DNA of 20,000 bases from an uncultured virus (IMG/VR IMGVR_UViG_3300042451_000642) (IMGVR_UViG_3300042451_000642); one strand, 5' to 3'; counted from the stretch's first letter, positions 3,071 through 20,000 are shown. The notes: generated by a model from the letters alone, not told the origin. Numbers and translations: made by a program.

Positions 3071-3084
3071 GATAATTATTATTT

Positions 3085-3996: not shown

Positions 3997-4054
3997 ATAA
4001 TTGGGACAATGTTAAGAAATTATTAACGTCCGTCCCGGTTTCGGAGAACTATTT

Positions 4055-5438: not shown

Positions 5439-5439
5439 T

Positions 5440-5535
5440 ATGGGAACAATATTTCCGGTCATAATATCATTTACAATTGTAATAGGATTGACTATATTTT
5501 TAATGATAATTGACTACATCACAAAAAAAAGATAA
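5440..5535 (+). CDS. Single-pass membrane micro-protein (31 aa, not in ORF track)
   Basis: MGTIFPVIISFTIVIGLTIFLMIIDYITKKR*; TM segment plus basic tail; fills the intergenic gap. Confidence 0.6.
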   Translation: MGTIFPVIISFTIVIGLTIFLMIIDYITKKR

Positions 5536-5545
5536 AAAAAATTAT

Positions 5546-7184: not shown

Positions 7185-7240
7185 GAGTGTCCAATTTAAA
7201 ATATAACTGCGAACGGGGATTCCGGAGAACAGAAAATATA

Positions 7241-7272
7241 TTTGGAATATACTAGAATATCTTATATCTTTG
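7241..7272 (+). promoter_or_regulatory. Bacteroidota-type promoter, probably leaderless
   Basis: TTTG 7241-7244, 20 nt, TATCTTTG 7265-7272, ATG at 7277. Confidence 0.75.
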
Positions 7273-7276
7273 TGGT

Positions 7277-7537
7277 ATGAGAAGAAAGAAACCATATATG
7301 GATGATATCCATAAGACCACGCCCGTAACCATCACCTATAAGTTCTATAATGATACGGTGATAATGAAGAGAGATGTATATGATTTAACAATCAGGGACC
7401 TAATGGAACTAAATCGGTCCATGGTGGTGAATGTCTTTGATGAACAACTCTATCAGGAGTATATTATCCAATTAGCAGGGGAGTTAACAAAGAAAAAGAA
7501 TCCAATTAAGAACTTTATAGATAGAATACTAAGATAA
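7277..7537 (+). CDS. Hypothetical protein
   Basis: 86-aa ORF directly behind a promoter. Confidence 0.75.
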   Translation: MRRKKPYMDDIHKTTPVTITYKFYNDTVIMKRDVYDLTIRDLMELNRSMVVNVFDEQLYQEYIIQLAGELTKKKNPIKNFIDRILR

Positions 7538-7538
7538 A

Positions 7539-7570
7539 TTTGGAATATACGGAATAATATGTTATATTTG
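7539..7570 (+). promoter_or_regulatory. Bacteroidota-type promoter, probably leaderless
   Basis: TTTG 7539-7542, 20 nt, TATATTTG 7563-7570, ATG at 7575. Confidence 0.75.
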
Positions 7571-7574
7571 TGTT

Positions 7575-8963: not shown

Positions 8964-8972
8964 TCTTCACCT

Positions 8973-9024
8973 GTTCACGTTTACGTGAACGTTCACTGTC
9001 CGTGAACATAGGTATTTTGTGAAC
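8973..9024. repeat. Cluster of GTTCAC/GTGAAC inverted repeats
   Basis: GTTCACGT-TT-ACGTGAAC, GTTCAC-TGTCC-GTGAAC, and a further GTGAAC at 9019. Confidence 0.75.
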
Positions 9025-9096
9025 ACCTTTACTATCCTGAAGGGAGGAGACGAGAGTCTCCGACCGACAATTACACCCTATAAAATTACCCCTCAG

Positions 9097-9121
9097 AACC
9101 CCTCCATAGGGGTTTTATTTT
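9097..9121 (+). terminator. Possible intrinsic terminator for left-arm transcription
   Basis: AACCCC-TCCATA-GGGGTT followed by TTATTTT. Confidence 0.45.
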
Positions 9122-9242
9122 ACCCCGAATTTTTTCCTGTTTATACCACTAAAAACCCTACTTTTTCCTGTCTGTTTTATCGTGATCAATTAATATATCT
9201 AAAACTATCTTTTTCTATCCCATATTTGGGTTCTAGTATAAT

Positions 9243-9270
9243 TTATCCACAATTCCCCACTTTCTCCCAC
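9243..9270. promoter_or_regulatory. DnaA box overlapping an MraZ-like (GTGG-N6)x3 array
   Basis: TTATCCACA at 9243-9251; CCAC at 9247, 9257 and 9267 (10-nt period). Confidence 0.4.
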
Positions 9271-9453
9271 TTACTAGGAATGTTCACTGGGATTGACCCG
9301 TGAGCGAATCACAGACCATTTTATTTTTTCTACCAGAATATACCCCTAATATCATTATATTATTACGGTCGGACTCTTCGAGTCCTCCCTTCAGGATGTC
9401 ATACAACGTCTTAGTATAACCCTTTATATATTATATTAATCTGTCATACATTA

Positions 9454-9469
9454 GGTTCCACGTGGAACC
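9454..9469. promoter_or_regulatory. parS-like perfect 16-bp palindrome
   Basis: GGTTCCACGTGGAACC; the inner 14 bp match the parS-type TGTTCCACGTGGAACA. Confidence 0.55.
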
Positions 9470-9748
9470 CTGAAGGGGGACCGAAGGTCCCCCGTATAAT
9501 AGAATATTCGTAATACAGGATGAAGGGGACCGAAGGTCCCCGAGTATACTTATAATACTTTTATACGGTCCTGATGTGATACGTCTATAATCCCTGAACC
9601 GTAATACAAACATTACTGGGGAAACCCACCCATGGGAAATAGTTTGCCAAACAACATTAAGATTACTGGGGAGACCAATATTGTTTGGCAGATTATACGG
9701 GGACCTTCGGTCCCCTTCAGGAGAATCTCGGAATAATCCTATGGAAAT

Positions 9749-9780
9749 TAAAAAAACCCTTAGGGATTTTCCGAAGGGTT
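9749..9780 (-). terminator. Intrinsic terminator downstream of the 294-aa ORF
   Basis: On the - strand: AACCCTTCGG-AAAATC-CCTAAGGGTT followed by a T run. Confidence 0.6.
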
Positions 9781-9852
9781 CTTAGTATAGTACAATATAT
9801 GTCTTACAAGGAAAGGATGAAGGGGGACCGAAGGTCCCCCGTAAGTAATACG

Positions 9853-10737
9853 TTATATCCATTTATAAATAAAGTTGAACTTATCTAAATTACTTGAAAA
9901 ACGAACAGGAACTAAATCATTTGATTTAAGTATGTATTTTATTCTTTCTGTTAATAGTGTTTCTAATAGTTCTTTTTTAGGTACTGCATAATCTTCAGAA
10001 AGTTTTGGGTACTCTATATAGATTGGCATGAAATCGAAGTCTACTTCCCCAGTAATCTTGTTGTGGCTTCTTGCATCACATTTGAACTTAAGTTTAACAT
10101 TTTTGGGGAATTTATAATATACCTTGATTTGTTTTAATTCACCATCATCTCCCATACTCGTATTGATTTCATCTGGTATTGTAAAGGTTCCCTCCTCGAC
10201 GAAGTCAAGATGAACCTGAAGGTTATGTGGAGTATTCTTTTGGGATTGGAGTTGTCTCAGACCTCTATTAATTCTTTCCAAGGTGGTGTCGTCGAGTTCC
10301 ATTACAGATCTGAATCCCACGGGATCTTTAAGAAAAGTCATCAGAGTCTTTACTTTACGAACTTCTTTTGTCCATTGAAGTATCTCCACGGGTAATACAG
10401 TGTCCATTGCACTGTTTAAGTTAAATCCAATGAATTCATTCATTCCCCCAGTAAATAATAGGTCACTGATCCTCACCATGGTTTCACCCATCTCATTACC
10501 ATCTTTATCCATGTACTCGTCATACATGGGCTTGAACTTCTCCGCAATCTCGGTCATCAACTTGAATATTATATCTGGTTGGACCTGAGTCTCACGTATT
10601 ACGATGTTCAAGTAAGATCCAAATGTACCAAAAGTTTCAGGTAGTGTATAATAAATCTCACCGTTTATTGAGTTCAGCGGACCCCTCAGAGATTTTACGA
10701 ATCTCTCGAAATCTGATTTGTCTAAAATTTTTCCCAT
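9853..10737 (-). CDS. Hypothetical protein (294 aa)
   Basis: Long ORF with no recognised motif; TATATTTATA just upstream on the - strand. Confidence 0.85.
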   Translation of the reverse strand: MGKILDKSDFERFVKSLRGPLNSINGEIYYTLPETFGTFGSYLNIVIRETQVQPDIIFKLMTEIAEKFKPMYDEYMDKDGNEMGETMVRISDLLFTGGMNEFIGFNLNSAMDTVLPVEILQWTKEVRKVKTLMTFLKDPVGFRSVMELDDTTLERINRGLRQLQSQKNTPHNLQVHLDFVEEGTFTIPDEINTSMGDDGELKQIKVYYKFPKNVKLKFKCDARSHNKITGEVDFDFMPIYIEYPKLSEDYAVPKKELLETLLTERIKYILKSNDLVPVRFSSNLDKFNFIYKWI

Positions 10738-10749
10738 AGATATAAATAT

Positions 10750-10779
10750 AAAAAAAAAGGTTCCATTGTGGTGGAACCT
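10750..10779 (-). terminator. Intrinsic terminator after the AP2-like gene
   Basis: AGGTTCCA-CCACAA-TGGAACCT plus T8 on the - strand. Confidence 0.75.
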
Positions 10780-10805
10780 CTTAGTAATACATGTGTGTAA
10801 TAAGA

Positions 10806-10985
10806 CTATCGTCCCATTAACTCGTTACGGAACTGTACGGCCTTTCTCTTGCTTGAGAAATTCTTAGAGTACTTAGTACCATTAACACTTACACGTACAC
10901 GGTAAGATGAACCATCATGATAGATGTTGTCGGCAACAGGAACATATGTAGTAACTGTGGTGCGACGGGATGTTGTTTTTTTCAT
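10806..10985 (-). CDS. Stand-alone AP2/integrase-arm-like DNA-binding mini-protein (59 aa, not in ORF track)
   Basis: MKKTTSRRTTVTTYVPVADNIYHDGSSYRVRVSVNGTKYSKNFSSKRKAVQFRNELMGR*; basic; three-strand plus helix pattern; followed by its own terminator. Confidence 0.7.
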   Translation of the reverse strand: MKKTTSRRTTVTTYVPVADNIYHDGSSYRVRVSVNGTKYSKNFSSKRKAVQFRNELMGR

Positions 10986-11131
10986 TTGTGACTATTTTAA
11001 GTTTATATATAAAATATAACAAATAATATCCAAATAAAAAAATCCTGCCAAAAAATATTTTACCCCAGTAAACTTAGACCATCTTGCTGTTGGTCAGAGG
11101 TGAATTCCCCAGTAATGTTCCGAGTCCCTGA

Positions 11132-11272
11132 TCAGGTCCCACTGTTGAGATATCTATCTCCCCACTTCTTGGTCATATAGGCATCATACCTATGTACCTT
11201 GTTCGGGTTGAACAGGAATATCACGAAGTAGTAATCCCACTTCCACTCTAAATCTTTTAAAAACTTCTTCAT
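11132..11272 (-). CDS. Small aromatic-rich hypothetical protein (46 aa, not in ORF track)
   Basis: MKKFLKDLEWKWDYYFVIFLFNPNKVHRYDAYMTKKWGDRYLNSGT*. Confidence 0.6.
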   Translation of the reverse strand: MKKFLKDLEWKWDYYFVIFLFNPNKVHRYDAYMTKKWGDRYLNSGT

Positions 11273-11298
11273 ATGATGTTGTTTATTCCCCAGTAATG

Positions 11299-11499
11299 TT
11301 ATCCCATCTTCTCCTTCCTGAGGATGTCGGTCAGAAGATTTTTGTGATTTTGAACGATTACACCGTGCTGTTTCTTAAGAGCTTCCTCTAAGGACATTCG
11401 TTTGTGTGTAATCTTCCAATTGATTCTGTCGGTCGACTCCCATCGTTCCCAATGCTTACCACTAGGTGAGAGCTGAATTCTACTGTGAATCTTTTTCAT
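11299..11499 (-). CDS. Hypothetical protein (66 aa)
   Basis: Start revised to MKKIHSRIQ at 11499 because a promoter lies at 11523-11554. Confidence 0.65.
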   Translation of the reverse strand: MKKIHSRIQLSPSGKHWERWESTDRINWKITHKRMSLEEALKKQHGVIVQNHKNLLTDILRKEKMG

Positions 11500-11522
11500 T
11501 TGTTTTTTATTTGATAATTCCG

Positions 11523-11554
11523 CAAAGGTACGGTGTTTAAGGGTTAATACCAAA
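11523..11554 (-). promoter_or_regulatory. Bacteroidota-type promoter
   Basis: TTTG-N20-TACCTTTG on the - strand. Confidence 0.7.
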
Positions 11555-11557
11555 CCC

Positions 11558-12124
11558 TTAAACAAATTCTTCAGTTTTAATCATATTGAAATCAATTGAC
11601 TTCAGTTTGAATACTAAGTAGTCGATTGCTATTCCCACAATCTTTCCATTGTGCTTGGCTACAAGAAGTCGGTAGGAACCATCCCCATAACCTGAAGACG
11701 ATACTACCCCAGTATTATATGATCCCCACTGTTGGCTTGACAAGGTTAATCTACACATCTTCTCATACCACTTATCTCCCTCACCCTCACACGGTAACAT
11801 AAAGTCCATCTTAGGTGCTGTTATCTCGTCAGCAATGGAATCATTCCTATAGGACTCCATATCAAATATCCCACACTGACCTGAGTCAACACCGATATCT
11901 GCTGCGGTAACTGTTCTCCAAGACAAATCGTCCTCCACATAATCCTTGTGGACAGCAACAAGTGCTGCACATCTTGTACCCCAACCACCGGTCTCATCCG
12001 ATTTGAATGCTGTGGAGGAGTACTCACCAGGTAATACATCTGTCAACTTATGCTGACACCAGGTAGGGACAGTGTAACAAGGGTCCGATACCATAACTTC
12101 CGAGCCTAAATAAATTTTTTCCAT
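11558..12124 (-). CDS. DUF4241-like protein
   Basis: VSDPCY, IGVDSGQCGIFD, SSGYGDGSY...GKIVGIAIDY. Confidence 0.65.
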   Translation of the reverse strand: MEKIYLGSEVMVSDPCYTVPTWCQHKLTDVLPGEYSSTAFKSDETGGWGTRCAALVAVHKDYVEDDLSWRTVTAADIGVDSGQCGIFDMESYRNDSIADEITAPKMDFMLPCEGEGDKWYEKMCRLTLSSQQWGSYNTGVVSSSGYGDGSYRLLVAKHNGKIVGIAIDYLVFKLKSIDFNMIKTEEFV

Positions 12125-12125
12125 T

Positions 12126-12449
12126 TTAAATTACATTTATTGTGAATGATTCTGTTTCGATTTGTCTGTGTAAATAAACTAAGTGTTCCATTGTAAGGTC
12201 GTTATAACCTAAGTCGTGGTAACCATCTCCTGTAATACCTTTGGTGATTAACTGACCTGTGCTTCCACATATCCCTATAACAACTACTTTAACTTGGTAG
12301 TCGTCGTCGAAGTTTTGGGTAAACCACACTGAGAATGGATTGATTAATTCTAATTCAAATTCGTCCCCTCCGTTAAGTTTAACGGTTCTGTGGACAATAT
12401 CTCGGTGAATGGAATCACGGAGCTTTAGTAACTCTTGAGAGTAATTCAT
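12126..12449 (-). CDS. Hypothetical protein
   Basis: 107-aa ORF abutting the downstream gene. Confidence 0.75.
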   Translation of the reverse strand: MNYSQELLKLRDSIHRDIVHRTVKLNGGDEFELELINPFSVWFTQNFDDDYQVKVVVIGICGSTGQLITKGITGDGYHDLGYNDLTMEHLVYLHRQIETESFTINVI

Positions 12450-12473
12450 ATGATTAATAGTTTAAGTGTAATA

Positions 12474-12505
12474 CGAAATTAAGTATTCTTTTCGAATATT
12501 CCAAA
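12474..12505 (-). promoter_or_regulatory. Bacteroidota-type promoter (variant -7)
   Basis: TTTG-N20-TAATTTCG. Confidence 0.55.
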
Positions 12506-12988
12506 TTATGCTAGAATATTTTTTAGAACTTTAATATTCTCGTCAATCTCAAGGTCCATCACTTTAAGTAACTTCTCCTTGGCTAACTCCATAAACTCTA
12601 CACTGTTACCCAGTAAATCTATGTCCGTCCCGTGCACATCCGTCTTCCCGACGATAACCCTGATGTCCTTAGTACCTTTACCCTCTCTATAGAATAGAGC
12701 TCGAGCATAGATGTACTCACGAACCAAAGACAGTTTGATTTCATCTGCCACAGATTCCTTAGAACGGAGTTGCATAATGATTTCTTCTAACTTGGCTAAC
12801 ATCTCGAAGTTGGTCTTCATCATACGGATGCTGTTCTTATACTGATTACAGTACTTCACCAGCTCATCAGTGTGAGGAATACTTAAGTCGATGTCCACAT
12901 TAAGGAAACGATCGTATGAACTAATTCTATCTCGGGTACCCACTATCTCAGTGAATACTCCTCCCGTTAAACGATTTTCTCTACCCAT
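12506..12988 (-). CDS. Hypothetical protein
   Basis: 160-aa ORF. Confidence 0.8.
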   Translation of the reverse strand: MGRENRLTGGVFTEIVGTRDRISSYDRFLNVDIDLSIPHTDELVKYCNQYKNSIRMMKTNFEMLAKLEEIIMQLRSKESVADEIKLSLVREYIYARALFYREGKGTKDIRVIVGKTDVHGTDIDLLGNSVEFMELAKEKLLKVMDLEIDENIKVLKNILA

Positions 12989-13188
12989 TTTATTTTTGTT
13001 TTTAATTTGTTTAAAATCCCAGTAAACTTGTCCCCATCCTGGCTCACCTCAGGTGCGAACTCATATCTCGTGTTCATTGTACCCCCCAAATAACCAGTAA
13101 AGTATTTGGTTGGTTCAACATATTGACTCGATACTCTATATCTTTCCACCCACTCATTAAATGATAATGGGGTTTGGAATGTGCTCAT
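12967..13188 (-). CDS. Hypothetical protein
   Basis: Probable start MSTFQT at 13188, directly after the upstream stop. Confidence 0.65.
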   Translation of the reverse strand: MSTFQTPLSFNEWVERYRVSSQYVEPTKYFTGYLGGTMNTRYEFAPEVSQDGDKFTGILNKLKTKIKWVEKIV

Positions 13189-13189
13189 C

Positions 13190-13825
13190 TTACATTTCAG
13201 TTTCTTTTCCATATATCTCTTTTAATTCGTTAAAAATTTCTTCTAATTTTTTAAGGTCTTCGTCCCCAGTAATAAAATGGAACATTTCCTTCACCGACTC
13301 GAAGGTTACATCTTCATCACTCTCGAACAAATAGTCAATGTCCCCGTCGATAGATTCAAAGAAGTTCTCCTTGTCGAAAAGATATCTACCCTCATTGTAT
13401 GAATAATCTTCTTCGGTTAATCCATTCTCATTGTCAAAATAAGATTTACCACAGAAGTCACAACCTGGTTCTTCATAATATAACTCACACTTCACATTGA
13501 ATAACCTACCCAAGTGTTGAATGAAGTTTATTGGTGGTGACCAAGCTGAATCGAACGACATTGTTATTGATTCGTCATCATAAGTGATATTAGCTTCGTT
13601 GTATGACACATCCCACTTACAACCCCAGTAATTAATGTTGGCATCGTACCATCCTCCGTGTTCGTATTCATTTAACTCAATAGATTTGTCACGACCAACA
13701 AGAGCCATAAAAATACCAGGGGATGTGTTATCCTTACTCTCGATATCTTCGAGATAAAATTTAATTCTGTCCAAGTTTTCGTTATCACCTGTAATAGTAA
13801 GGTGATTGTTGCACCAATTTGGCAT
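13190..13825 (-). CDS. YubB/DUF1281-like ferredoxin-fold phage/plasmid protein
   Basis: MPNWCNNHLTITG, WYDANINYWGCKWD, FDSAWSPP, YEEPGCDFCG. Confidence 0.8.
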   Translation of the reverse strand: MPNWCNNHLTITGDNENLDRIKFYLEDIESKDNTSPGIFMALVGRDKSIELNEYEHGGWYDANINYWGCKWDVSYNEANITYDDESITMSFDSAWSPPINFIQHLGRLFNVKCELYYEEPGCDFCGKSYFDNENGLTEEDYSYNEGRYLFDKENFFESIDGDIDYLFESDEDVTFESVKEMFHFITGDEDLKKLEEIFNELKEIYGKETEM

Positions 13826-13846
13826 AGTTGTATGATTTATGTTTAA

Positions 13847-13878
13847 CAAAGATATAACAGGGATATCATTATTCCAAA
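13847..13878 (-). promoter_or_regulatory. Bacteroidota-type promoter
   Basis: TTTG-N20-TATCTTTG. Confidence 0.75.
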
Positions 13879-13899
13879 TAATATCCCCGTTATTTTATT

Positions 13900-14382
13900 T
13901 TACCAAGAAGCTCTGTATTCAAAGTCACCAGAGTACAATCCGTGTTCTTTGGATTGTTCGTGTTCTTCTAACAACTCCTCAATGATTTTGATAGTTGAGT
14001 TTACATCTTCTTTGTAATACTCATCAATTTCATCACCACCGAAAAAGAAACCCTGTACTGGTGGAAGAAGTTCTTTAGCCTTATCAAAGTTGGAACTAAC
14101 TTCTTTTAGTGTTTCAAATAACTCTTTCAGCTTGTCCTCATCAACATTGATGTTTTGACATTCATCAATACCACCACCACAATTCTCAACGAACCATCCG
14201 TGAAGTGCATTGAACTTTCTCCAATACGCCACCTGTTCGGTGATGTAACAAATACGATTTGGTTTAATGTCGTTACGAACTACACCATTCTTTTTAACTT
14301 CGATTTGGTGTTGTTGTTCAGGTGGGTTGTGTTCCCAATTTTGTACATAAGTTCTTTTGTACAGATACATGTCTAGTCCCAT
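13900..14382 (-). CDS. Conserved phage protein of unknown function (MGLDMY...YWRKxN family)
   Basis: MGLDMYL, VAYWRKFNALHGWF, LLP..GFFFG, YRASW. Confidence 0.8.
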   Translation of the reverse strand: MGLDMYLYKRTYVQNWEHNPPEQQHQIEVKKNGVVRNDIKPNRICYITEQVAYWRKFNALHGWFVENCGGGIDECQNINVDEDKLKELFETLKEVSSNFDKAKELLPPVQGFFFGGDEIDEYYKEDVNSTIKIIEELLEEHEQSKEHGLYSGDFEYRASW

Positions 14383-14413
14383 GATTTTTTAGTTTAAGTG
14401 TTAATTAATAATG

Positions 14414-14445
14414 TAAAGGTATTACAATAATTTTATTATACCAAA
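14414..14445 (-). promoter_or_regulatory. Bacteroidota-type promoter (variant -7)
   Basis: TTTG-N20-TACCTTTA. Confidence 0.55.
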
Positions 14446-14817
14446 TTATTTTATGAAAAGTTTACTATCGATTGTAAATAATTCTTTGTACTCACTTCCG
14501 TCAGCATTCTGTCCGTTTAAATTCCAGAATGGCAACACTCTTGGATTGTATTTTAAATGTGCGGTAGTTTCAGGAATAAAATCTTCGGTAAGAATTTCTA
14601 TTTCTTTACAAAGAACATAAGCACAAACGACTTTGGTGGTTTCCCCAGTAAATATTTTCTGCGCTGCTGTCCTGTTGTTTTTCAGAACGCAATCAGTTAG
14701 TATTAACTGAACTTCAGCTGGGTGATAATATTTCACCCAGCCGTTGTTATATTCAATTTTCCATTTCATATAGTTCTCTCCCTTTCCGAGATTGAACCTA
14801 ACTTTATGCTTTTTCAA
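14446..14817 (-). CDS. Hypothetical protein
   Basis: Likely TTG start near 14817 (KKHKVRFNLGKGENYMKWKI); the longer ORF-track start would overlap the upstream gene by about 200 nt. Confidence 0.65.
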   Translation of the reverse strand: MKKHKVRFNLGKGENYMKWKIEYNNGWVKYYHPAEVQLILTDCVLKNNRTAAQKIFTGETTKVVCAYVLCKEIEILTEDFIPETTAHLKYNPRVLPFWNLNGQNADGSEYKELFTIDSKLFIK

Positions 14818-15256
14818 CTTCTTCCTTTTTATATTTTTTAACAAATTGGGATGGAGTACCACGAAACAATTCAGTTTTATTTCCGTCGTTCTCATAACAA
14901 ACAAACTCAATGGAGTAATCTTCTTTAACGATAACATCATAAAGATAATCTTCCCAAGAATTTCCACGACTTGACAAAGATTGTACATAGGTGTTTCCTG
15001 TTTCGCCACCTTTTAATTTCCAAATGAGTTGAGCAGCTAAGCAACCAGCGCCGTTGAATACTAATTTCTTTTCATTAGCACCATACCCATTAACGACTTT
15101 TCCTGTTGATAACCATTCAGCGGTTTCAAGTGGATGACCTGTTGGGTATCCGTCGTACTGACGATAGATTAAACAGATTTCATTCTGTTTTACTTTTTTT
15201 ACTTTTTTACCTGTTGAGTATTCCTCAATGATGCGGTAAGTTGAACGAGTTCCCAT
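14804..15256 (-). CDS. Conserved phage protein (MGTRS...YDGYP family)
   Basis: MGTRST, IYRQYDGYP, FNGAGCLAAQL, EDYLY; start revised to 15256, downstream of the promoter. Confidence 0.8.
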   Translation of the reverse strand: MGTRSTYRIIEEYSTGKKVKKVKQNEICLIYRQYDGYPTGHPLETAEWLSTGKVVNGYGANEKKLVFNGAGCLAAQLIWKLKGGETGNTYVQSLSSRGNSWEDYLYDVIVKEDYSIEFVCYENDGNKTELFRGTPSQFVKKYKKEEVEKA

Positions 15257-15289
15257 AATAAATTTTTTTTTGTGATTAATATTATGATA

Positions 15290-15320
15290 CAAAGATAATA
15301 CTTTTTTATTACCTGCCAAA
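15290..15320 (-). promoter_or_regulatory. Bacteroidota-type promoter
   Basis: TTTG-N19-TATCTTTG with AT-rich upstream tract. Confidence 0.75.
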
Positions 15321-15350
15321 TTTATTTTCAACTTTTTTAAAAAAATATTT

Positions 15351-15490
15351 GCCGGCGTCATGCATAATCCTAAACATTACTGGGGTGTAATACGGATCTG
15401 ATCGGCGCACGATCTGCAAAACTGGCTAAACATTACTGGGATGTACCCCAGTAAACTTTCGCCTCAGGCCTGTGCAGATACAGTGCACAG
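15351..15490. repeat. TTACTGGG cassette 1
   Basis: TTACTGGG at 15377 and 15433, CCCAGTAA at 15447; GC-rich palindromic spacers. Confidence 0.85.
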
Positions 15491-15491
15491 C

Positions 15492-15519
15492 AAAAAAAAT
15501 CCCCACCTTTCGGTGAGGA
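15492..15519 (-). terminator. Intrinsic terminator
   Basis: TCCTCACC-GAAA-GGTGGGGA plus T8. Confidence 0.85.
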
Positions 15520-15526
15520 CATTAAA

Positions 15527-16285
15527 TTAAAGTTGTATGACAAACTTATTCTTTGTTAACTTATTTCGAACTCGTTTATATTTTAGTCCGACAATTACAT
15601 TCTTTTTATCTTTATACCTCATATCGTATAAATCCCCATCGATTACTTTCCTATCCCAAAATGTTTTAGGTACTTTATTAAAAACAACCGCCACCCTTAC
15701 ATTCTTATTTAACATTGAGTGACACTCATTTAAATTGTGACCGCTATAAGAGAAAGTTAAATCGTAGTTCTTATATTTTTTAAGTAGTTCGATTCTTTTA
15801 GGAACCTTCGTATAATCGTAGAATTGAATATGTTGAAAGTATTGTAAAATATTAACGGGTTTATCATTTACATGAAGATAAAACGATTCGGGTGTTATAT
15901 CTGATGTGTTATTCAAACGAACTGAAAATTTATAACCTAACTTCTTAGCCTTCAATTCAGTTGCTTTAATTTCATCGAATAACCAACTGACAAAAAATTC
16001 TCTGTGTTCAAAAAACAATTTAGTTTTTGCAATTCGTGAACGATTAATTTTATCGTCCTCCATGTTCATCGTGTTCATCCCTGATTCATTCAAACATAAC
16101 TTTGTACATTCTTTTGTTCTCATAGGGCAAACCTCGTAACCGCTCATTTTTGCAGGAGCTAAGTACAAACTATATGTTAATTCATCGTACTTGAATGCCT
16201 TCTGATGTTTGGTTGTCATATTAACGGAGCCTAAATAAGATATCCCTGTTAATCTTTTTGCTTGAGCTTTAGTAGTGTAAATCAT
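15527..16285 (-). CDS. GP88-like (gene product 88) phage protein with CxxxxxxCxxxC cluster
   Basis: LYLAPA..SGYEVCP....CTKLCL, VRLNNTSDI, QFYDYTK, YDLTFSYS, IDGDLYDMR; start revised to 16285. Confidence 0.75.
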   Translation of the reverse strand: MIYTTKAQAKRLTGISYLGSVNMTTKHQKAFKYDELTYSLYLAPAKMSGYEVCPMRTKECTKLCLNESGMNTMNMEDDKINRSRIAKTKLFFEHREFFVSWLFDEIKATELKAKKLGYKFSVRLNNTSDITPESFYLHVNDKPVNILQYFQHIQFYDYTKVPKRIELLKKYKNYDLTFSYSGHNLNECHSMLNKNVRVAVVFNKVPKTFWDRKVIDGDLYDMRYKDKKNVIVGLKYKRVRNKLTKNKFVIQL

Positions 16286-16306
16286 TTGTTTATTTTTTAG
16301 TGTACA

Positions 16307-16338
16307 CAAATATACAACTAATACTTTTATATTCCAAA
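16307..16338 (-). promoter_or_regulatory. Bacteroidota-type promoter
   Basis: TTTG-N20-TATATTTG. Confidence 0.75.
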
Positions 16339-16360
16339 TTTATTTTTAAATATTTTTTTG

Positions 16361-16508
16361 AGTCAGCGCATGCGCGCAGCACTGGCCTAACTTTACTGGG
16401 GTAATACGACACAGATTTTGCATGCAGATTACAGGTGAATAATTACTGGGATGTACCCCAGTAAACTTGTGCGCTGGTCCGAGCTGCGTTTGCGCTGAGG
16501 GTAATACG
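16361..16508. repeat. TTACTGGG cassette 2
   Basis: TTACTGGG at 16393 and 16443, CCCAGTAA at 16457; core ATTACTGGGATGTACCCCAGTAAACTT identical to cassette 1. Confidence 0.85.
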
Positions 16509-16509
16509 C

Positions 16510-16539
16510 AAAAAAAAGGGTGAACATTTCTGTCCACCC
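16510..16539 (-). terminator. Intrinsic terminator
   Basis: GGGTGGACA-GAAA-TGTTCACCC plus T8. Confidence 0.85.
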
Positions 16540-16560
16540 AATCGTTCACACTAATAAACA

Positions 16561-16875
16561 CTAATCACTAATTCGTTTTTCTGTTCTAATACACTCAGCT
16601 TCCCACTGCTCACATAGAAGTAATACATCTTCCAACACATTCTCATTCAACTCCCAATAACTTTCTTCGTAGGTGTCGATAGCGTCAGAACTACTTGAAC
16701 GAGGTTCGTACACATTTACTTCGATATAATCTTCTGTGAAATATTCACCCAACCCAACATAGTTACCTAGTGTACCAACGAGAATACTATTCTCACCTTC
16801 TAATTCTCCAATACTAAAACATCCGTTGACTTTTAGTATGTCTGTAATACGATTAATGATTTCTGAATTTTCCAT
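16561..16875 (-). CDS. Acidic hypothetical protein
   Basis: 104-aa ORF. Confidence 0.75.
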   Translation of the reverse strand: MENSEIINRITDILKVNGCFSIGELEGENSILVGTLGNYVGLGEYFTEDYIEVNVYEPRSSSSDAIDTYEESYWELNENVLEDVLLLCEQWEAECIRTEKRISD

Positions 16876-16877
16876 TT

Positions 16878-17150
16878 TTAAATTGATTTAGTATTATCCC
16901 AAATTATATTACCTTCCTCGTCATACAACTCCTCCGTAGGTTCTCCACCATTTTCGTCAGGCATTATACGCTCAAGAGTTTCGTCAATATGTTCCCACGG
17001 CAGTTCAGTGGTTCCCATTTCTAAATGAAATCCAATTGCTAATTGTTTAGCCTCCTCCATTGAGTTAGCCTCGATTTCAAATTCGGTACGATACCAGGTC
17101 GTAACCTTTGTGTCCAAATGAAAGTTAAATGTTGTTAGGGTCTGTTCCAT
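16878..17150 (-). CDS. Acidic hypothetical protein
   Basis: 90-aa ORF with EFEIEANSMEEAKQLA, a pattern common in small phage proteins. Confidence 0.75.
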   Translation of the reverse strand: MEQTLTTFNFHLDTKVTTWYRTEFEIEANSMEEAKQLAIGFHLEMGTTELPWEHIDETLERIMPDENGGEPTEELYDEEGNIIWDNTKSI

Positions 17151-17250
17151 TTTCTATTGATTTTTTAATTGATATAATAAGTAATACAACCATTACCGAA
17201 AACAATACAATAACTCCGAATCCTAAAAGTAGACAATATAAGACATTCAT
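17125..17250 (-). CDS. Single-pass membrane micro-protein (41 aa, not in ORF track)
   Basis: MNVLYCLLLGFGVIVLFSVMVVLLIISIKKSIENGTDPNNI*. Confidence 0.55.
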   Translation of the reverse strand: MNVLYCLLLGFGVIVLFSVMVVLLIISIKKSIENGTDPNNI

Positions 17251-17261
17251 AGTTTTAATTT

Positions 17262-17459
17262 TTAAAGTTCACGAATATACATATAATCTTCTAATTCTTC
17301 CAAAGGAATTCTTCCGTTATTAGAACTATAATATCCTTGTCTTCGATATCGTTCTTTCCACTTGTCAAATGCCTCAAATGCTTTTTCCTTTGATGTGTAA
17401 TAAGGTCTATCGAATTCAATCGTAAACCCGTCGGGGGATAATACTTCGTACTTTGTCAT
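17262..17459 (-). CDS. Hypothetical protein
   Basis: 65-aa ORF; ATGA overlap with the upstream gene. Confidence 0.75.
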   Translation of the reverse strand: MTKYEVLSPDGFTIEFDRPYYTSKEKAFEAFDKWKERYRRQGYYSSNNGRIPLEELEDYMYIREL

Positions 17460-17806
17460 AGTCCTGCATTTTTAATGATACAATCTAATTTATATTCAAA
17501 TTCTTCCCTCATACCTTCAATGTCATATACCTTTCTATTTTCATCCACTTCATTATCTTCATTAATGTAAGGATGATAAAAAGCAACATCCACTTCAATT
17601 ACATTCGGTTTAAATTCCTTAACCATACTAATTGAATATTCGTGTTTAATTAAGGTATCTTGGTGTTGTGAACCACTATACCTATTTTGTCTATGTTGTT
17701 CCACAACTTGGTGTGAACCCATAGGTTTCCAACCATTTTTAATTAGGTTGTTAATTTTCTCCGTCAATCCTTCGGGGGATGAACTTGTTAATACTTTGTA
17801 CTCCAT
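17456..17806 (-). CDS. DUF1737-like N-terminal domain protein
   Basis: MEYKVLTSSSPEGLTEKINNLIKNGWKPMGS...YSISMVK; start revised to 17806. Confidence 0.65.
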   Translation of the reverse strand: MEYKVLTSSSPEGLTEKINNLIKNGWKPMGSHQVVEQHRQNRYSGSQHQDTLIKHEYSISMVKEFKPNVIEVDVAFYHPYINEDNEVDENRKVYDIEGMREEFEYKLDCIIKNAGL

Positions 17807-17828
17807 AATATTTTTGTTTAGTGTAAGA

Positions 17829-17860
17829 CAAAGATAAAACAATAATATTATTTTACCAAA
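17829..17860 (-). promoter_or_regulatory. Bacteroidota-type promoter
   Basis: TTTG-N20-TATCTTTG. Confidence 0.75.
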
Positions 17861-17881
17861 TTTATTTTGAAGAATTTTTTT

Positions 17882-18070
17882 TCAGCCCGATCATCCTAAA
17901 CATTACTGGGTTGAATTGTTAGCCAGCGCAAATTTCCTGATCAGCGCGCGCAAATCTGGCTAATGTTTACTGGGGTGTCCCAGTAATAATCACTTGCGCA
18001 CAATGCCTGGTCCATGAGTTATTTGTAATACCCCAGTAAACTTCATGATCAGCGCACAGTGTGACGGGTT
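17882..18070. repeat. TTACTGGG cassette 3
   Basis: TTACTGGG at 17903 and 17967, CCCAGTAA at 17979 and 18032. Confidence 0.85.
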
Positions 18071-18079
18071 CTTCTAAAC

Positions 18080-18111
18080 AAAAAACCCCCGAACCAAAAG
18101 TCCGAGGGTTT
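18080..18111 (-). terminator. Intrinsic terminator
   Basis: AACCCTCGGAC-TTTTG-GTTCGGGGGTT plus T run. Confidence 0.8.
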
Positions 18112-18137
18112 CACCAATCTAATCTTTAACCTTTGTC

Positions 18138-18416
18138 TTATCTTAGTCTTTCATCAACAACTAAGTTATAATATCCGTTTAAGAAATTAATTATTTCTGT
18201 AATACTTTCTTTTGACACTTTATGTTCTAATAACAATGATTCGATAAATCGTTTATTATCCGTCAAACCTAAACAATAAATAAAACCATTATCATCGTTT
18301 TTAGTATTAAAAAAAGTAAAATCAATTTCAATCGGTTTTAATTTAATTCTTACTTTCTGATAATTCTCAGAATCAATTTTCAAAGTTTTAGTTTTAATAA
18401 CTTTACTTGTGTCCAT
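18138..18416 (-). CDS. Hypothetical protein (very AT-rich)
   Basis: 92-aa ORF between the DUF932 gene and a terminator. Confidence 0.65.
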   Translation of the reverse strand: MDTSKVIKTKTLKIDSENYQKVRIKLKPIEIDFTFFNTKNDDNGFIYCLGLTDNKRFIESLLLEHKVSKESITEIINFLNGYYNLVVDERLR

Positions 18417-18443
18417 ACTTTTATTTTTTTAATTATTAATGTC

Positions 18444-19304
18444 TTACACTAAATGTACAAGTTCCTTAAAGATTTGTCTCTCACGATTTCCGTAAGTTCC
18501 GAACATCTTATTTTCAGAATTGTCACCTTTACCCATACTATGAGTTGTGTATTTTGTTACACCACTAAATAAACCCCAAATGTTATCACCCTTTTCGTTA
18601 ATCTCACCATTAAGGTCGACATAGAATCTACTTAATTTGTTTCGTGTTACGATATGTAACGAATCAACATCCTTAATATCAACATTCTTTTCGATATTGA
18701 ATAATGATTTGATTACTCTATCCTTGATAATATCATCGAAACGAGTTTCACTCATTTTAACGATAGAACCGAACACATTCTTTTCTTCTTGTACTACACC
18801 CTCAATTTGTCGACAGATATCTTCTATCTTTAATTCCATATTCTTTGTATGACGTACCTTTGAATCTAAATCCTTGTACACACCAAAGAATGTGTTTTGA
18901 CAACTGATAGTTTTAGAACTAGGTCCGAACGATAATGAAGTCGAACCATCAAAAGAATTAATCCCAGTAACATAACCCTCGATTCTATCCGTCCCCAAGG
19001 TTAAGTCGTTTGATTTTAATTGAACGAATACTTTTCGTCCACCACCGAACAAACCACCTCTGTGAACATCAAGTCCAGTTTGTTGTGATACTTTGAATAA
19101 TAGTTCCATCATTTGGTCATTCTGATATGGTACATAACCATTCGAGTGAATACCCAAGATTGTACTATCATCCTCACGAACGATACCAATTTTATCAGGG
19201 ATAATAATTCCTGACGAAGTTTGAAGTCCTTCGGTACGGACTTTCCAATTTAAACCAGTTCTATCCAAGAACTGATTAACCCGATTGTTTTCTACGATTT
19301 CCAT
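18444..19304 (-). CDS. DUF932/DUF945 phage/plasmid-like protein (TIGR03299-like)
   Basis: GLNWKV, VREDDSTILG...YVPYQN, GGLFGGGRKVFV, NSFDGS, SCQNT, RHT, WGLFSGVTKYTTH. Confidence 0.85.
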   Translation of the reverse strand: MEIVENNRVNQFLDRTGLNWKVRTEGLQTSSGIIIPDKIGIVREDDSTILGIHSNGYVPYQNDQMMELLFKVSQQTGLDVHRGGLFGGGRKVFVQLKSNDLTLGTDRIEGYVTGINSFDGSTSLSFGPSSKTISCQNTFFGVYKDLDSKVRHTKNMELKIEDICRQIEGVVQEEKNVFGSIVKMSETRFDDIIKDRVIKSLFNIEKNVDIKDVDSLHIVTRNKLSRFYVDLNGEINEKGDNIWGLFSGVTKYTTHSMGKGDNSENKMFGTYGNRERQIFKELVHLV

Positions 19305-19341
19305 CTGTTTAATTTTTATGGTTTAATAAATGATTGTATGA

Positions 19342-19373
19342 CAAAGATAAATCAATTTGGCATATAATCCAAA
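19342..19373 (-). promoter_or_regulatory. Bacteroidota-type promoter
   Basis: TTTG-N20-TATCTTTG. Confidence 0.75.
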
Positions 19374-19404
19374 TTTATTTTTAAGAAATATTAATTAATT
19401 TTTT

Positions 19405-19500
19405 CTCCTGATCCACCTGTGATCAGAGCTCCCAATATTACTGGGTAATACTTGATGATACCCCAGTAATTTTATGGGATGATCAGGGACGAGAAATCTG
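19405..19500. repeat. TTACTGGG cassette 4
   Basis: TTACTGGG at 19438, CCCAGTAA at 19462; flanked by TGATCA twice and GAGCTC. Confidence 0.8.
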
Positions 19501-19507
19501 TGGACAT

Positions 19508-19535
19508 AAAAAAACCCCCGACAGAATCGGAGGTC
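19508..19535 (-). terminator. Intrinsic terminator
   Basis: ACCTCCGA-TTCTG-TCGGGGGT plus T run. Confidence 0.8.
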
Positions 19536-19554
19536 TTTAATATAATAAGGGATT

Positions 19555-19878
19555 TTACTCCCCTAATAAATTTAGTACAAGGTGTTCGGAAGTTTCCTCC
19601 TCCCACACATCATCATTCCAATCCTCACCGACTTGTGTACAAGTCTTGTAGTCAAGGTAGACAATACCCATTTTAATTGTGACAATTCCTTCGGTTCTTT
19701 CGTTGATGGGAACCAACTCTTTTTCCACAAGGAATAAAAGTACGGTTTCGTAGACAAAAAATTGGTCGGTATTTTCCGACTCAACATATTCAACTTGACC
19801 TTGGAAGTCAAGGGAGAATTCGAATTCCATGTCAGAACTCAAAATCTTTTTAATCTCGGATAAGTATGTAGTATCCAT
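19555..19878 (-). CDS. Acidic hypothetical protein
   Basis: 107-aa ORF between a promoter and a terminator. Confidence 0.75.
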   Translation of the reverse strand: MDTTYLSEIKKILSSDMEFEFSLDFQGQVEYVESENTDQFFVYETVLLFLVEKELVPINERTEGIVTIKMGIVYLDYKTCTQVGEDWNDDVWEEETSEHLVLNLLGE

Positions 19879-19909
19879 AGTGTGTAGGTCTATTGGTTAG
19901 TAGACAATA

Positions 19910-19940
19910 CAAATATAAAAAAGAAATTCCGTTTTACAAT
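19910..19940 (-). promoter_or_regulatory. Bacteroidota-type promoter (imperfect -33)
   Basis: ATTG-N19-TATATTTG. Confidence 0.6.
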
Positions 19941-19969
19941 ACATTTATGAAAAATTATTTTACTTTTTT

Positions 19970-20000
19970 TCTGACCCTGGTAATCCAAATATATTACTGG
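19970..20000. repeat. Start of a probable fifth TTACTGGG cassette (truncated by window end)
   Basis: TTACTGG at 19994-20000, in the same position relative to a promoter as in cassettes 1-4. Confidence 0.6.

What the first reader, a model, noticed from the sequence alone, without database searches (positions are those of the whole stretch)
15351..19490. Cassette spacers are packed with restriction-type palindromes that are scarce elsewhere
Seen: GCGC occurs 12 times in cassettes 1-3 (15405, 16366, 16372, 16374, 16471, 16492, 17926, 17944, 17946, 17948, 17996, 18052), against only three I could find in the rest of the window (4896, 14661, 15048); 14661 lies 10 nt from an in-gene motif copy. The spacers also string together GCCGGC, GATC, TGCA, CCTCAGG, AGGCCT, GTGCAC, GCATGC, GCGCGC, TGCGCA, TGATCA, TCATGA, GAGCTC, GGTCC and CCTGG. 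Known: phages generally lose such Type II R-M sites. Inference: either a protein bound at TTACTGGG shields the neighbouring DNA, or these are deliberate decoy or methyltransferase-recruiting patches. Either would be an undescribed anti-restriction or modification-sensing device.
Basis: partly seen in the sequence, partly recalled or inferred. Interest (0 to 1): 0.8.

Follow-up and report, generated by a model that had tools for sequence, protein, structure and literature searches.

The report
Conserved GATC/GCGC elements in phage promoter cassettes
The spacers between the early genes of this lake-water giant phage keep two short DNA words (GATC and GCGC) that the rest of its genome has purged, and the evidence suggests these are conserved parts of gene-control modules, not decoys against bacterial restriction enzymes.

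Summary
All 15 GCGC positions are exact. The general claim does not hold. Against dinucleotide shuffles of cassettes 1-4 (588 nt), only GATC (9 vs 1.8) and GCGC (12 vs 2.9) are in excess. The other 13 palindromic tetramers are not (24 vs 33.5), nor are hexamers lacking those cores (11 vs 8.4).

The contrast with the rest of the 54.8-kb contig is real. It is purged of GATC (O/E 0.19) and of the GpC step (O/E 0.48).

The "spacers" are the probably untranscribed cores of terminator / repeat array / Bacteroidetes-type promoter cassettes. They separate single early genes of a roughly 330-kb phage.

GATC and GCGC sit at fixed offsets from the TTACTGGG core (23 of 38 upstream GATC at -18..-14). They are kept between relatives (18 of 22 sites vs 51% of all tetramers). 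They recur in a sister clade whose core is TTACTGGA.

Best reading (0.55): selected cis-regulatory sub-elements of shuffling, PeSL-like regulatory cassettes. A methylation-sensing role is not excluded (0.15). A decoy role is unlikely.

The GCGC richness also follows a mosaic pattern. Cassettes inside a GpC-free, alanine-free gene block have none.

The parts
15351..15490 (-). Cassette 1 core, between terminator and promoter. Holds TTACTGGG/CCCAGTAA copies at 15377, 15433 and 15447; GATC at 15395, 15400 and 15411; GCGC at 15405; and the hairpin CTGTGCA..TGCACAG.
   Evidence: alignment with relatives
15499..15520 (-). Intrinsic terminator of the upstream GP88-family gene (15527-16285).
15290..15324 (-). 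Promoter of the next gene: TTTG inside TAAATTTGG (15316-15324), 19 nt, then TATCTTTG (15290-15297). This is the Bacteroidetes -33/-7 pattern; that consensus is recalled, not taken from a call.
16350..16510 (-). Cassette 2 core. Motif copies at 16393, 16443 and 16457; GCGC at 16366, 16372, 16374, 16471 and 16492, including the 10-bp palindrome GCGCATGCGC; no GATC in this genome, though relatives have GATCTGC repeats here.
16518..16539 (-). Intrinsic terminator upstream of cassette 2.
16307..16342 (-). Promoter: TAAATTTGG (16334-16342) plus TATATTTG (16307-16314).
17885..18075 (-). Cassette 3 core, the longest. It corresponds to two cassettes flanking an extra gene in relative G002. Motif copies at 17903, 17967, 17979 and 18032; GCGC at 17926, 17944-17948, 17996 and 18052; GATC at 17889, 17939 and 18047.
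18082..18112 (-). Intrinsic terminator upstream of cassette 3.
17829..17864 (-). Promoter: TAAATTTGG (17856-17864) plus TATCTTTG (17829-17836).
19405..19500 (-). Cassette 4 core, inside the GpC-free zone. Motif copies at 19438 and 19462; GATC at 19410, 19421 and 19481; no GCGC. The position aligned with the GCGC dyad of cassettes 1-3 is occupied by CTGATCACAGGTGGATCAG.
19342..19377 (-). Promoter: TAAATTTGG (19369-19377) plus TATCTTTG (19342-19349).
19508..19534 (-). Terminator-like hairpin plus T-run upstream of cassette 4. Read by eye; the scan tool did not list it.
9613..9689 (.). Left-most cassette of the early region. Two TTACTGGG copies (9613, 9663) lie between GCCAAACAA (9646-9654) and TTGTTTGGC (9681-9689). 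That second pair is the core repeat used by sister clades.
10048..18970 (-). Motif copies outside cassettes 1-4, all TTACTGGG on the sense strand (CCCAGTAA on + at 10048, 10447, 11064, 11108, 11289, 12609, 13018, 13265, 13624, 14644, 18963). Eight of them lie inside genes (counting 14644, which falls in the ORF 14449-14769 that my crude caller missed); 11064, 11108 and 11289 are intergenic and form a small cluster of their own. No GATC or GCGC excess beside the nine copies that classed as solitary.

Best explanation
What the spacers are. They are the probably untranscribed cores of composite regulatory cassettes. Read in the direction of transcription (minus strand), each cassette runs: stop codon, intrinsic terminator, a 100-190-bp array of a roughly 30-45-nt repeat unit in both orientations (core TTACTGGG), a Bacteroidetes-type -33/-7 promoter, then the next small early gene. 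The host is a roughly 330-kb lake-water phage.

Where the palindrome excess comes from. It consists of GATC and GCGC only. Both words are parts of conserved sub-elements of the repeat unit:
- CTGATCRT, about 15 nt upstream of the core.
- GATCTGC repeats.
- The dyads GCGCATGCGC and CAGCGC..GCGCTG.

Proposed mechanism. I infer that these are recognition or dyad elements for DNA-binding factors that control or insulate the early promoters. The core motif is probably read by a phage-encoded factor, because it changes in concert between clades. Purifying selection keeps these words in place while GATC and GpC are purged from the rest of the genome, presumably under restriction-type pressure.

A second role. 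The cassettes also act as recombination points at which whole gene units are gained, lost and swapped. This spreads the GCGC-rich version among neighbouring cassettes.

Shown: the anatomy, the enrichment, the fixed spacing, the conservation, the recurrence across clades, and breakpoints at cassette edges.

Inferred: protein binding, the regulatory role, and lack of transcription across the core.
For: Anatomy.
- Terminators at 15499-15520, 16518-16539 and 18082-18112.
- Exact TAAATTTGG on the minus strand beside each of the 4 cassettes, which is 4 of the 5 exact copies in the window.
- A second box TAnnTTTG lies 19-20 nt further on.
- The same layout is seen in 9 G000 and 16 G002 cassettes.

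Specific excess. Only GATC and GCGC exceed dinucleotide shuffles.

Fixed position. 23 of 38 GATC upstream of non-redundant TTACTGGG copies start at -18..-14. The rotation control gave a mean of 4.25 and a maximum of 13 in 5000 trials. GCGC peaks at -21..-19, -13 and -10.

Homologous positions. Cassettes 1-4 and four G002 cassettes align over CCCAGTAA-TTAGCCAG-TGCGC..GCGCTGATCA (alignment A3).

Conservation, G000 vs G002.
- Coding DNA is 88.8% identical; other cassette positions are 80.6% identical.
- Motif positions: 184/184 identical. GCGC positions: 34/34. GATC positions: 43/44.
- By site: GATC 8/10 and GCGC 10/12 are kept, against 617 of 1218 for all cassette tetramers and 27 of 59 for other palindromic tetramers.

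Independent clade. In L098 the flanking protein is 67% identical and the core is TTACTGGA. All 7 GATC and all 4 GCGC of 5750 nt lie in 3 cassettes (shuffles 0.95 and 0.89). It shares GCGCATGCGC, GATCTGC repeats and the GTGCACTGTATCTGCAC hairpin with our cassettes 2 and 1. In 6 GpC-depleted clades, GCGC is 15 non-coding vs 2 coding.

Co-evolving core. The core is TTACTGGG here, TTACTGGA in L098, TTCTGTGGC in L058 and TTGTTTGGC in L063/68/75/78/79.

Shuffling.
- Indels of whole genes are bounded by cassettes in relatives.
- Joints in metagenome contigs fall at cassette edges: 17884|15350, 19503|15491 and 15328|17828.
Against: - No binding protein was identified. No HTH or other DNA-binding family was found among the early genes.
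- Neither word is universal. GATC is in 5 of the 10 G000 arrays that hold two or more motif copies (the 9 cassettes plus a looser cluster at 42.6-43.0 kb) and in 12 of 16 G002 cassettes; GCGC is in 3 of 10 and 6 of 16 (counted by eye on the printout).
- Cassettes in the GpC-free zone work, presumably, without any GCGC. GCGC as such is therefore not required by the architecture.
- The site-conservation test is modest. It rests on 22 sites, some of them overlapping, and 3 of them are unaligned.
- Long-range pairing predicted inside cassettes is not kept by compensatory changes. Dyad structure is therefore not proven to matter.
- Lack of transcription across the core is inferred from terminator and promoter positions only.
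Confidence: 0.55

Rival explanations
1. Methylation-sensing switch. The conserved GATC and GCGC are targets of the phage's own N6/N4 and C5 DNA methyltransferases (or of host enzymes). Their methylation state (fully methylated injected DNA vs newly replicated DNA, or self vs foreign) would gate factor binding and early-promoter activity.
For: - The two enriched words are among the four most strongly purged palindromic tetramers of this genome: GCGC 0.16 and GATC 0.21 by mononucleotide expectation.
- The contig encodes one N6/N4 methylase (PF01555), one full C5 methylase (PF00145, TIGR00675) and a second C5-like protein.
- The sites lie directly upstream of promoters at fixed offsets.
- Phage C5 methylases that act on GpC-containing sites are in print (PMC8256090, passages read).
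Against: - Specificities are unknown. The C5 enzyme matches M.HhaI and M.HaeIII only over the catalytic half (query residues 6-183). The N6/N4 enzyme has no solved relative.
- Many cassettes lack one or both words.
- Sister clades run the same architecture with no GATC at all.
- No methylation data exist.
Confidence: 0.15
2. Mosaic history. Cassettes 1-3 belong to a segment imported from, or exchanged with, a lineage under weaker GpC avoidance. Their GCGC richness would then be inherited composition spread by duplication and gene conversion among cassettes, without a function of its own.
For: - The two genes around cassettes 1 and 2 have near-normal GpC (13 vs 14.7 and 13 vs 17.8), while neighbouring blocks are depleted or GpC-free.
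- The same zone pattern is present in G002.
- Cassettes in the GpC-free zone have 0-2 GpC and no GCGC.
- Cassettes 1-3 are paralogous.
- One G002 cassette has had its hairpin replaced by the CAGCGC..GCGCTG version found in its neighbour.
Against: - Given the GpC count, GCGC is still 4-fold over dinucleotide shuffles.
- Cassette 3 is flanked by GpC-depleted genes (2 vs 8.4 and 0 vs 3.2).
- The GCGC elements are kept in the L098 clade at 67% protein identity and are conserved above the cassette background.
- This rival says nothing about GATC.
Confidence: 0.13
3. Tolerance without function. The sites persist because selection against them does not reach this DNA. Either a protein array on TTACTGGG occludes it, or the purge acts on transcripts and the cassette cores are not transcribed.
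For: - In the four cassettes of the window, every GpC of the intergenic regions lies between the terminator T-run and the -7 box, and UTRs and terminator stems have none; further on, the terminator-like hairpin of the 54.1-kb cassette does hold one.
- The only 4 GpC in 50-54 kb are in cassettes.
- In 6 GpC-depleted clades, non-coding GpC O/E is 0.8-1.45 against 0.34-0.59 in coding DNA.
Against: - Tolerance predicts shuffle-level counts and neutral turnover. It does not predict 4-5-fold excess, fixed offsets or conservation.
- Cassettes of the GpC-free zone are themselves GpC-poor (4 vs about 34 expected).
- Four clades purge GATC from cassettes too.
- In-gene motif copies have no such neighbours.
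Confidence: 0.12
4. Decoy patches that titrate host restriction enzymes away from the rest of the genome.
For: Only the co-location of two avoided words.
Against: - A cut at a decoy still breaks the genome.
- Only two words are present, not a spectrum.
- The words are absent from many cassettes.
- No known precedent (from my own knowledge; no search was run for this).
Confidence: 0.03

Closest known systems
PeSL (promoter-early stem-loop) composite terminator/promoter motifs of T4-type phages (PMC2839356 seen in a search listing; PMC4122927 abstract read)
   Same: A small composite terminator plus early promoter lies between small, variable early genes. Indels and swaps between close relatives have their breakpoints in the motif.
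   Different: Here a 100-190-bp array lies between terminator and promoter. It holds a clade-specific 8-9-mer in both orientations plus conserved GATC and GCGC sub-elements. The promoter is of the Bacteroidetes -33/-7 type. There is no sequence relationship to PeSLs.
Restriction-site (palindrome) avoidance in phage genomes (general knowledge, recalled)
   Same: Genome-wide loss of GATC, of GpC-containing tetramers and of hexamer palindromes. The degree varies by clade, as expected if the pressure comes from the host.
   Different: The purge reaches a whole dinucleotide (GpC), to the point of alanine-free proteins. It spares a defined class of regulatory DNA.
Dam-controlled phage promoters, such as the GATC cluster upstream of Mu mom, and the TGATCA/G hexamers of the P1 pac site
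   Same: GATC or TGATCA clusters in a short control region of a phage.
   Different: No evidence here for a GATC methylase, for a methylation-sensitive binder or for a packaging role.
Phage C5-methyltransferase / TET / glycosyltransferase hypermodification acting on GpC sites (PMC8256090, passages read)
   Same: The phage encodes C5 methylases and several glycosyltransferases. GpC is the dinucleotide at issue.
   Different: No TET/JBP domain was found on this contig. The methylase specificity is unknown. The paper does not report GpC avoidance in the passages I read.
Integron attC sites
   Same: A one-directional array of small gene units separated by imperfect inverted repeats of variable length.
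   Different: Every unit here has its own promoter and terminator. No integrase was seen on the contig. The attC core sites were not examined.

Membership tests
PeSL-type mobile regulatory cassette | Composite of a terminator stem-loop and an early promoter between small genes | tested here: met
   Terminators; promoter boxes; layout in 9 G000 and 16 G002 cassettes.
PeSL-type mobile regulatory cassette | Indel and replacement breakpoints between close relatives fall in the motif | tested here: met
   Breaks in the BLAST matches at cassettes and an extra gene splitting cassette 3 in G002. Small-ORF indel beside cassette 2. Contig joints 17884|15350, 19503|15491 and 15328|17828 (metagenome contigs, so some may come from relatives).
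PeSL-type mobile regulatory cassette | T4-type sigma-70 early promoter and descent from T4-like phages | tested here: not met
   The promoter boxes are TTTG / TAnnTTTG. No match to known phages by megablast. So it works like a PeSL but is not a member by descent.
Generic restriction-site patch (decoy or shielded DNA) | Excess of many different Type II palindromes over local composition | tested here: not met
   Only GATC and GCGC are in excess. The other 13 tetramers are 24 vs 33.5; other hexamers are 11 vs 8.4.
Generic restriction-site patch (decoy or shielded DNA) | Sites free to turn over (no positional or sequence constraint) | tested here: not met
   Fixed offsets. 18 of 22 sites are kept vs 51% background. 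Shared with the L098 clade.
Methylation-regulated promoter (Dam/Dcm-type switch) | Cluster of methylase target sites in the control region | tested here: met
   3 GATC each in cassettes 1, 3 and 4; up to 5 GCGC in cassettes 2 and 3.
Methylation-regulated promoter (Dam/Dcm-type switch) | Cognate methyltransferase of matching specificity | tested here: inconclusive
   One N6/N4 and two C5 methylase-like genes are on the contig. Their specificity is not readable from sequence.
Methylation-regulated promoter (Dam/Dcm-type switch) | Binding or expression changes with methylation state | not testable with these tools
   Needs a methylome and binding or reporter assays.
Integron attC | Integron integrase and promoterless cassettes | tested here: not met
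   No integrase among 92 ORFs (PHROGs; Pfam on subsets only). Every unit has its own promoter and terminator. The contig is a fragment, so absence of an integrase is weak evidence.
Structured RNA family | Match to a described RNA family, or pairs kept by compensatory change | tested here: not met
   No Rfam match in 8900-20000 at E <= 1 except one chance-level hit. Outer stems of cassette 2 are broken, not compensated, in relatives.

The most novel reading that the evidence does not exclude
The cassettes are epigenetic sensors. The phage purges GATC and GCGC/GpC everywhere except at fixed positions beside the core repeats of its early-promoter cassettes. There, its own N6/N4 and C5 methyltransferases (or the host's) write marks that decide whether the clade-specific factor binds. 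Early genes would then be switched according to whether the DNA is freshly injected, newly replicated or foreign. This would be a modification-sensing promoter array, not described for phages as far as I know (no search was run on this point).
Probability: 0.15. Interest if true: 0.75.

Novelty: new variant of a known kind. Interest (0 to 1): 0.45.

Why it matters
These giant freshwater phages organise their early, probably anti-defence genes (the block includes DUF932 and DUF1281_C family proteins) as exchangeable single-gene units. The units are separated by elaborate control cassettes whose core repeat changes in concert from clade to clade.

The avoided words GATC and GCGC survive only at fixed, conserved places in these cassettes. 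This marks them as functional DNA. It gives concrete targets for finding the factor or factors that run early transcription in an uncultured phage group.

It also sharpens a larger puzzle seen here. A selective force removes the GpC step so thoroughly that eight consecutive genes encode no alanine.

For the question as posed, the result is sobering. There is no general restriction-site patch and no evidence for a decoy.

Tried and rejected
- Known phages: megablast of 14000-20000 found nothing. tblastn of the DUF932 protein found only <30%-identical actinophage genes. The 633-aa protein found nothing.
- RNA: no Rfam family and no tRNA or tmRNA in the window or in L001-L003, L050 and L051. Cassettes fold better than shuffles on both strands (z -1.7 to -3.9), as any dyad-rich DNA does. 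Relatives break the long stems without compensation, so I dropped an RNA reading.
- Binder: no DNA-binding family among the small early proteins, even at E <= 10. The PHROG 'DNA binding protein' is a pyrimidine-dimer glycosylase homologue.
- Phage RNA polymerase as reader of the core motif: no Rpb1 or Rpb2 domains in G000-G004. All five records are fragments, so this says little.
- TET/JBP: none on the contig.
- Methylase specificity: not obtainable.
- Transcription of the cores: contigs of one metatranscriptome run (X23) lie only inside genes and none crosses a cassette. Cover is too thin to count as evidence.
- RNA-level GpC avoidance as the sole explanation: rejected as sole cause, because cassettes in the GpC-free zone are also GpC-poor and four clades purge GATC from cassettes.
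- Literature: two searches for GpC avoidance in phages gave only the TET paper. I found no paper on GpC-free or alanine-free phage genes in those two searches.
- Our own index: nothing for this genome, for the cassette sequence or for TTACTGGG.

Full report
**1. What the window is**

The window is bases 31617-51616 of a 54,812-bp viral contig with 32.9% G+C.

Size and habitat:
- Relatives are fragments of very large phages. One is 176 kb and is estimated at 53% complete, and contigs of the wider group reach 323 kb.
- The DNA recurs in lake-water metagenomes. 21 of 24 listed runs hold half or more of the sampled words.

Gene content of the contig:
- three DNA methyltransferase-like proteins (one N6/N4, two C5)
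- a 365-aa thymidylate-synthase homologue
- several glycosyltransferases and sugar-nucleotide enzymes
- an HNH endonuclease
- no structural genes

From 41.0 kb to the contig end, all genes run on the minus strand and are small. They include DUF932, DUF1281_C and GP88 family members.

**2. The observation**

I tested the four cassette cores (588 nt) against dinucleotide-preserving shuffles.

| Word class | Observed | Shuffle mean | Note |
|---|---|---|---|
| GCGC | 12 | 2.9 | reached by no shuffle |
| GATC | 9 | 1.8-1.9 | reached by no shuffle |
| Other 13 palindromic tetramers | 24 | 33.5 | below expectation |
| Hexamer palindromes without these cores | 11 | 8.4 | p 0.22 |
| All tetramer palindromes | 48 | 39.5 | p 0.07 |

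The hexamer excess (20 vs 10 overall) is due to TGATCA, GCGCGC, CGCGCG and TGCGCA.

The observation therefore stands for two words and fails as a general statement.

**3. The background**

Scarcity elsewhere is real:
- GATC is 35 vs 185.6 expected (O/E 0.19).
- GpC has O/E 0.48 over the contig.
- GCGC is 6 vs 38.6 by base composition.
- Hexamer palindromes far from cassettes are 90 vs 147.
- Ordinary non-coding DNA in 1-41 kb is purged too (GATC 3 vs 7.4; GpC 11 vs 54). The purge is therefore not a codon effect, and the cassettes are true exceptions.

The excess of GATC and GCGC lies within about 20 nt of clustered motif copies. It is absent around the nine solitary copies, eight of which lie inside genes.

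**4. Anatomy of a cassette**

Read in the direction of transcription, each cassette has this order:
1. Stop codon.
2. Intrinsic terminator.
3. After 25-40 nt, a sense copy of TTACTGGG.
4. An antisense copy 4-44 nt further on.
5. Usually another antisense copy about 40-50 nt beyond that.
6. An A/T run.
7. TTTG (inside TAAATTTGG; 4 of the 5 exact copies in the window sit here), 19-20 nt, then TAnnTTTG. I recognise this as the Bacteroidetes -33/-7 promoter pattern; that consensus is recalled, not taken from a call.
8. A 30-50-nt leader and the next ATG.

The long ORF extensions into cassettes listed are artefacts of upstream start codons.

The motif is highly specific to this region:
- It has 36 copies in the contig, all between 41.2 and 54.3 kb.
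- In relative G002, 63 of 64 copies lie in a 19-kb block. A reversed-pattern control gave 6 matches in that record.

**5. GATC and GCGC are parts of the repeat unit**

Position:
- Over 112 non-redundant contexts from five sources, 23 of 38 upstream GATC start 14-18 nt before TTACTGGG, typically as CTGATC(A/G)T.
- Rotating each upstream segment gave a mean of 4.25 and never more than 13 in 5000 trials.
- GCGC clusters at -21..-19, -13 and -10.

Paralogy:
- Cassettes 1-4 and four G002 cassettes align over CCCAGTAA-TTAGCCAG-TGCGC..GCGCTGATCA.
- Much of the GCGC count therefore comes from a shared, duplicated sub-element.
- In cassette 4, which lies in a GpC-free zone, that position reads CTGATCACAGGTGGATCAG. 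The dyad and the GATC are kept, and the GpC is gone.

Hairpins:
- Directly after several terminators there is a short hairpin.
- Its sequence can be swapped for another (CTGTGCA..TGCACAG vs CAGCGC..GCGCTG) between orthologous cassettes.

**6. Selection**

Between G000 and G002:

| Class | Conservation |
|---|---|
| Coding DNA | 88.8% identical |
| Other cassette positions | 80.6% identical |
| Motif positions in cassettes | 184/184 identical |
| Solitary motif positions | 72/72 identical |
| GCGC positions | 34/34 identical |
| GATC positions | 43/44 identical |
| GATC sites kept | 8 of 10 |
| GCGC sites kept | 10 of 12 |
| All cassette tetramers kept | 617 of 1218 |
| Other palindromic tetramers kept | 27 of 59 |

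Three of the 22 GATC and GCGC sites were unaligned and are counted as not kept. Some GCGC sites overlap, so this evidence is moderate.

The cross-clade comparison is stronger. A scan with the GP88-family protein (window 15530-16285) returned 49 loci at 53-100% identity. The same terminator-array-promoter design appears with other cores:
- TTACTGGA in L098
- TTCTGTGGC in L058
- TTGTTTGGC in L063/68/75/78/79. That pair also brackets the left-most cassette of our window (9646-9654 and 9681-9689).

In L098:
- All 7 GATC and all 4 GCGC of 5750 nt lie in three cassettes (shuffles 0.95 and 0.89).
- The cassettes flanking the orthologous gene share three elements with ours: GCGCATGCGC, GATCTGC repeats and the GTGCACTGTATCTGCAC hairpin.

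At 67% protein identity, unconstrained intergenic DNA should no longer be recognisable. These elements are therefore conserved.

In six GpC-depleted clades, GCGC is 15 non-coding vs 2 coding.

**7. Limits and contrary facts**

- Neither word is universal among cassettes.
- Four clades have no GATC at all in about 5.7 kb, cassettes included. Two clades do not avoid GATC (33 and 30 vs 19 expected). The purge therefore varies as a host-dependent, DNA-level pressure would. GATC in cassettes is a trait of our clade, of L098 and of L058.
- GCGC richness follows a mosaic pattern. The genes around cassettes 1 and 2 have normal GpC, whereas 49.75-54.1 kb is GpC-free and its cassettes have 0-2 GpC. G002 shows the same zones.
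- No binder was found.

**8. Shuffling**

- Relatives differ by whole gene units bounded by cassettes. G002 has an extra gene that splits our cassette 3 into two, and another unit after cassette 4.
- G001 and G002 carry a small extra ORF in the leader behind cassette 2.
- Metagenome contigs join cassette edge to cassette edge: 17884|15350, 19503|15491 and 15328|17828. These are contigs of mixed populations, so they may belong to relatives.
- This is the behaviour described for PeSLs of T4-type phages (abstract of PMC4122927).

**9. Reading**

The data fit conserved cis-elements inside shuffling regulatory cassettes (0.55).

The concerted change of the core between clades points to a phage-encoded reader. 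No polymerase domains were found, but all records are fragments.

The other readings:
- A methylation-sensing role remains open (0.15).
- Inherited composition from mosaic exchange contributes to the GCGC count (0.13 as sole cause).
- Pure tolerance (0.12) and decoy (0.03) fit poorly.

**10. Verdict**

The sites are kept on purpose, but nothing shows an anti-restriction device.

This is a new variant of a known kind. Interest is moderate. The GpC-free, alanine-free gene block noticed in passing is the more surprising feature.

Noticed in passing
window 18138-20000, continuing to contig 54106: Eight consecutive minus-strand genes (1040 aa) contain no GpC dinucleotide and no alanine. The only 4 GpC in contig 50-54 kb are in cassettes (about 112 expected). 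The whole contig has 2.9% Ala and GpC O/E 0.48. The same zones occur in relative G002 (70-74 and 77-78 kb). ORFs are intact under table 11 and no tRNA was found, so I saw no sign of stop-codon recoding here.
   Followed up: partly
contig 1-46000: GpC depletion depends on context. CGCG is at 0.18; CGCT, AGCT and AGCC at 0.25-0.26; AGCG at 0.33; TGCA at 0.77; TGCC at 0.90. GCGC is the rarest NCGN word (0.12).
   Followed up: no
window 10048-18963: The nine TTACTGGG copies that stand alone (eight of them inside genes) all lie on the sense strand. They fall in different reading frames (T-G, L-L-G, Y-W) and are identical in G002 at 72 of 72 positions, while coding DNA is 88.8% identical. L098 shows the same sense-only rule for TTACTGGA. 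Function unknown.
   Followed up: partly
window 9500-20000 and contig up to 54347: A second oriented word: GTAATAC occurs 26 times on the + strand against 3 for its complement, all within 41.1-54.3 kb. It often abuts the core motif, giving the quasi-palindrome TATTAC-CCCA-GTAATA.
   Followed up: no
window 8964-9852: An ORF-poor stretch where the two gene blocks converge. It has three copies of the hairpin GGACCGAAGGTCC (9478, 9527, 9825) and almost no GpC (3 vs about 34 expected). There was no Rfam match from 8900 onward, which is where that scan started.
   Followed up: no
contig 53288-53331 (window coordinate 21672-21715, outside the window): Two perfect, inverted DnaA-box-like nonamers (consensus recalled) plus a one-mismatch copy lie within 45 nt, next to a cassette. 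This could be a DnaA-binding or origin-like site.
   Followed up: no
window 16287-16304 vs L008:3872-4046 and L021: Relatives carry an extra ORF of roughly 60 aa between the cassette-2 promoter and the GP88-family gene. It is bounded by short direct repeats (CACTAAAAAA).
   Followed up: no
contig 349-19150 (L001): A cluster of a ThyA-like protein (365 aa), three methylase-like genes, four glycosyltransferases and sugar-nucleotide enzymes, one of them 'GT4-conflict'. This suggests DNA hypermodification. No TET/JBP domain was found.
   Followed up: partly
L051:1320-1500 (G002 about 79.3-79.5 kb): The early block starts at a divergent junction made of G-runs and C-runs with a single GpC. Just inside it lies a 600-nt cassette with 7 motif copies.
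   Followed up: no
loci L063, L068, L075, L078 vs L065, L088: GATC is absent from about 5.7 kb in four sister clades (17-19 expected). In two others it is at or above expectation (33 and 30 vs 19). This is a clade-by-clade switch in GATC avoidance.
   Followed up: no
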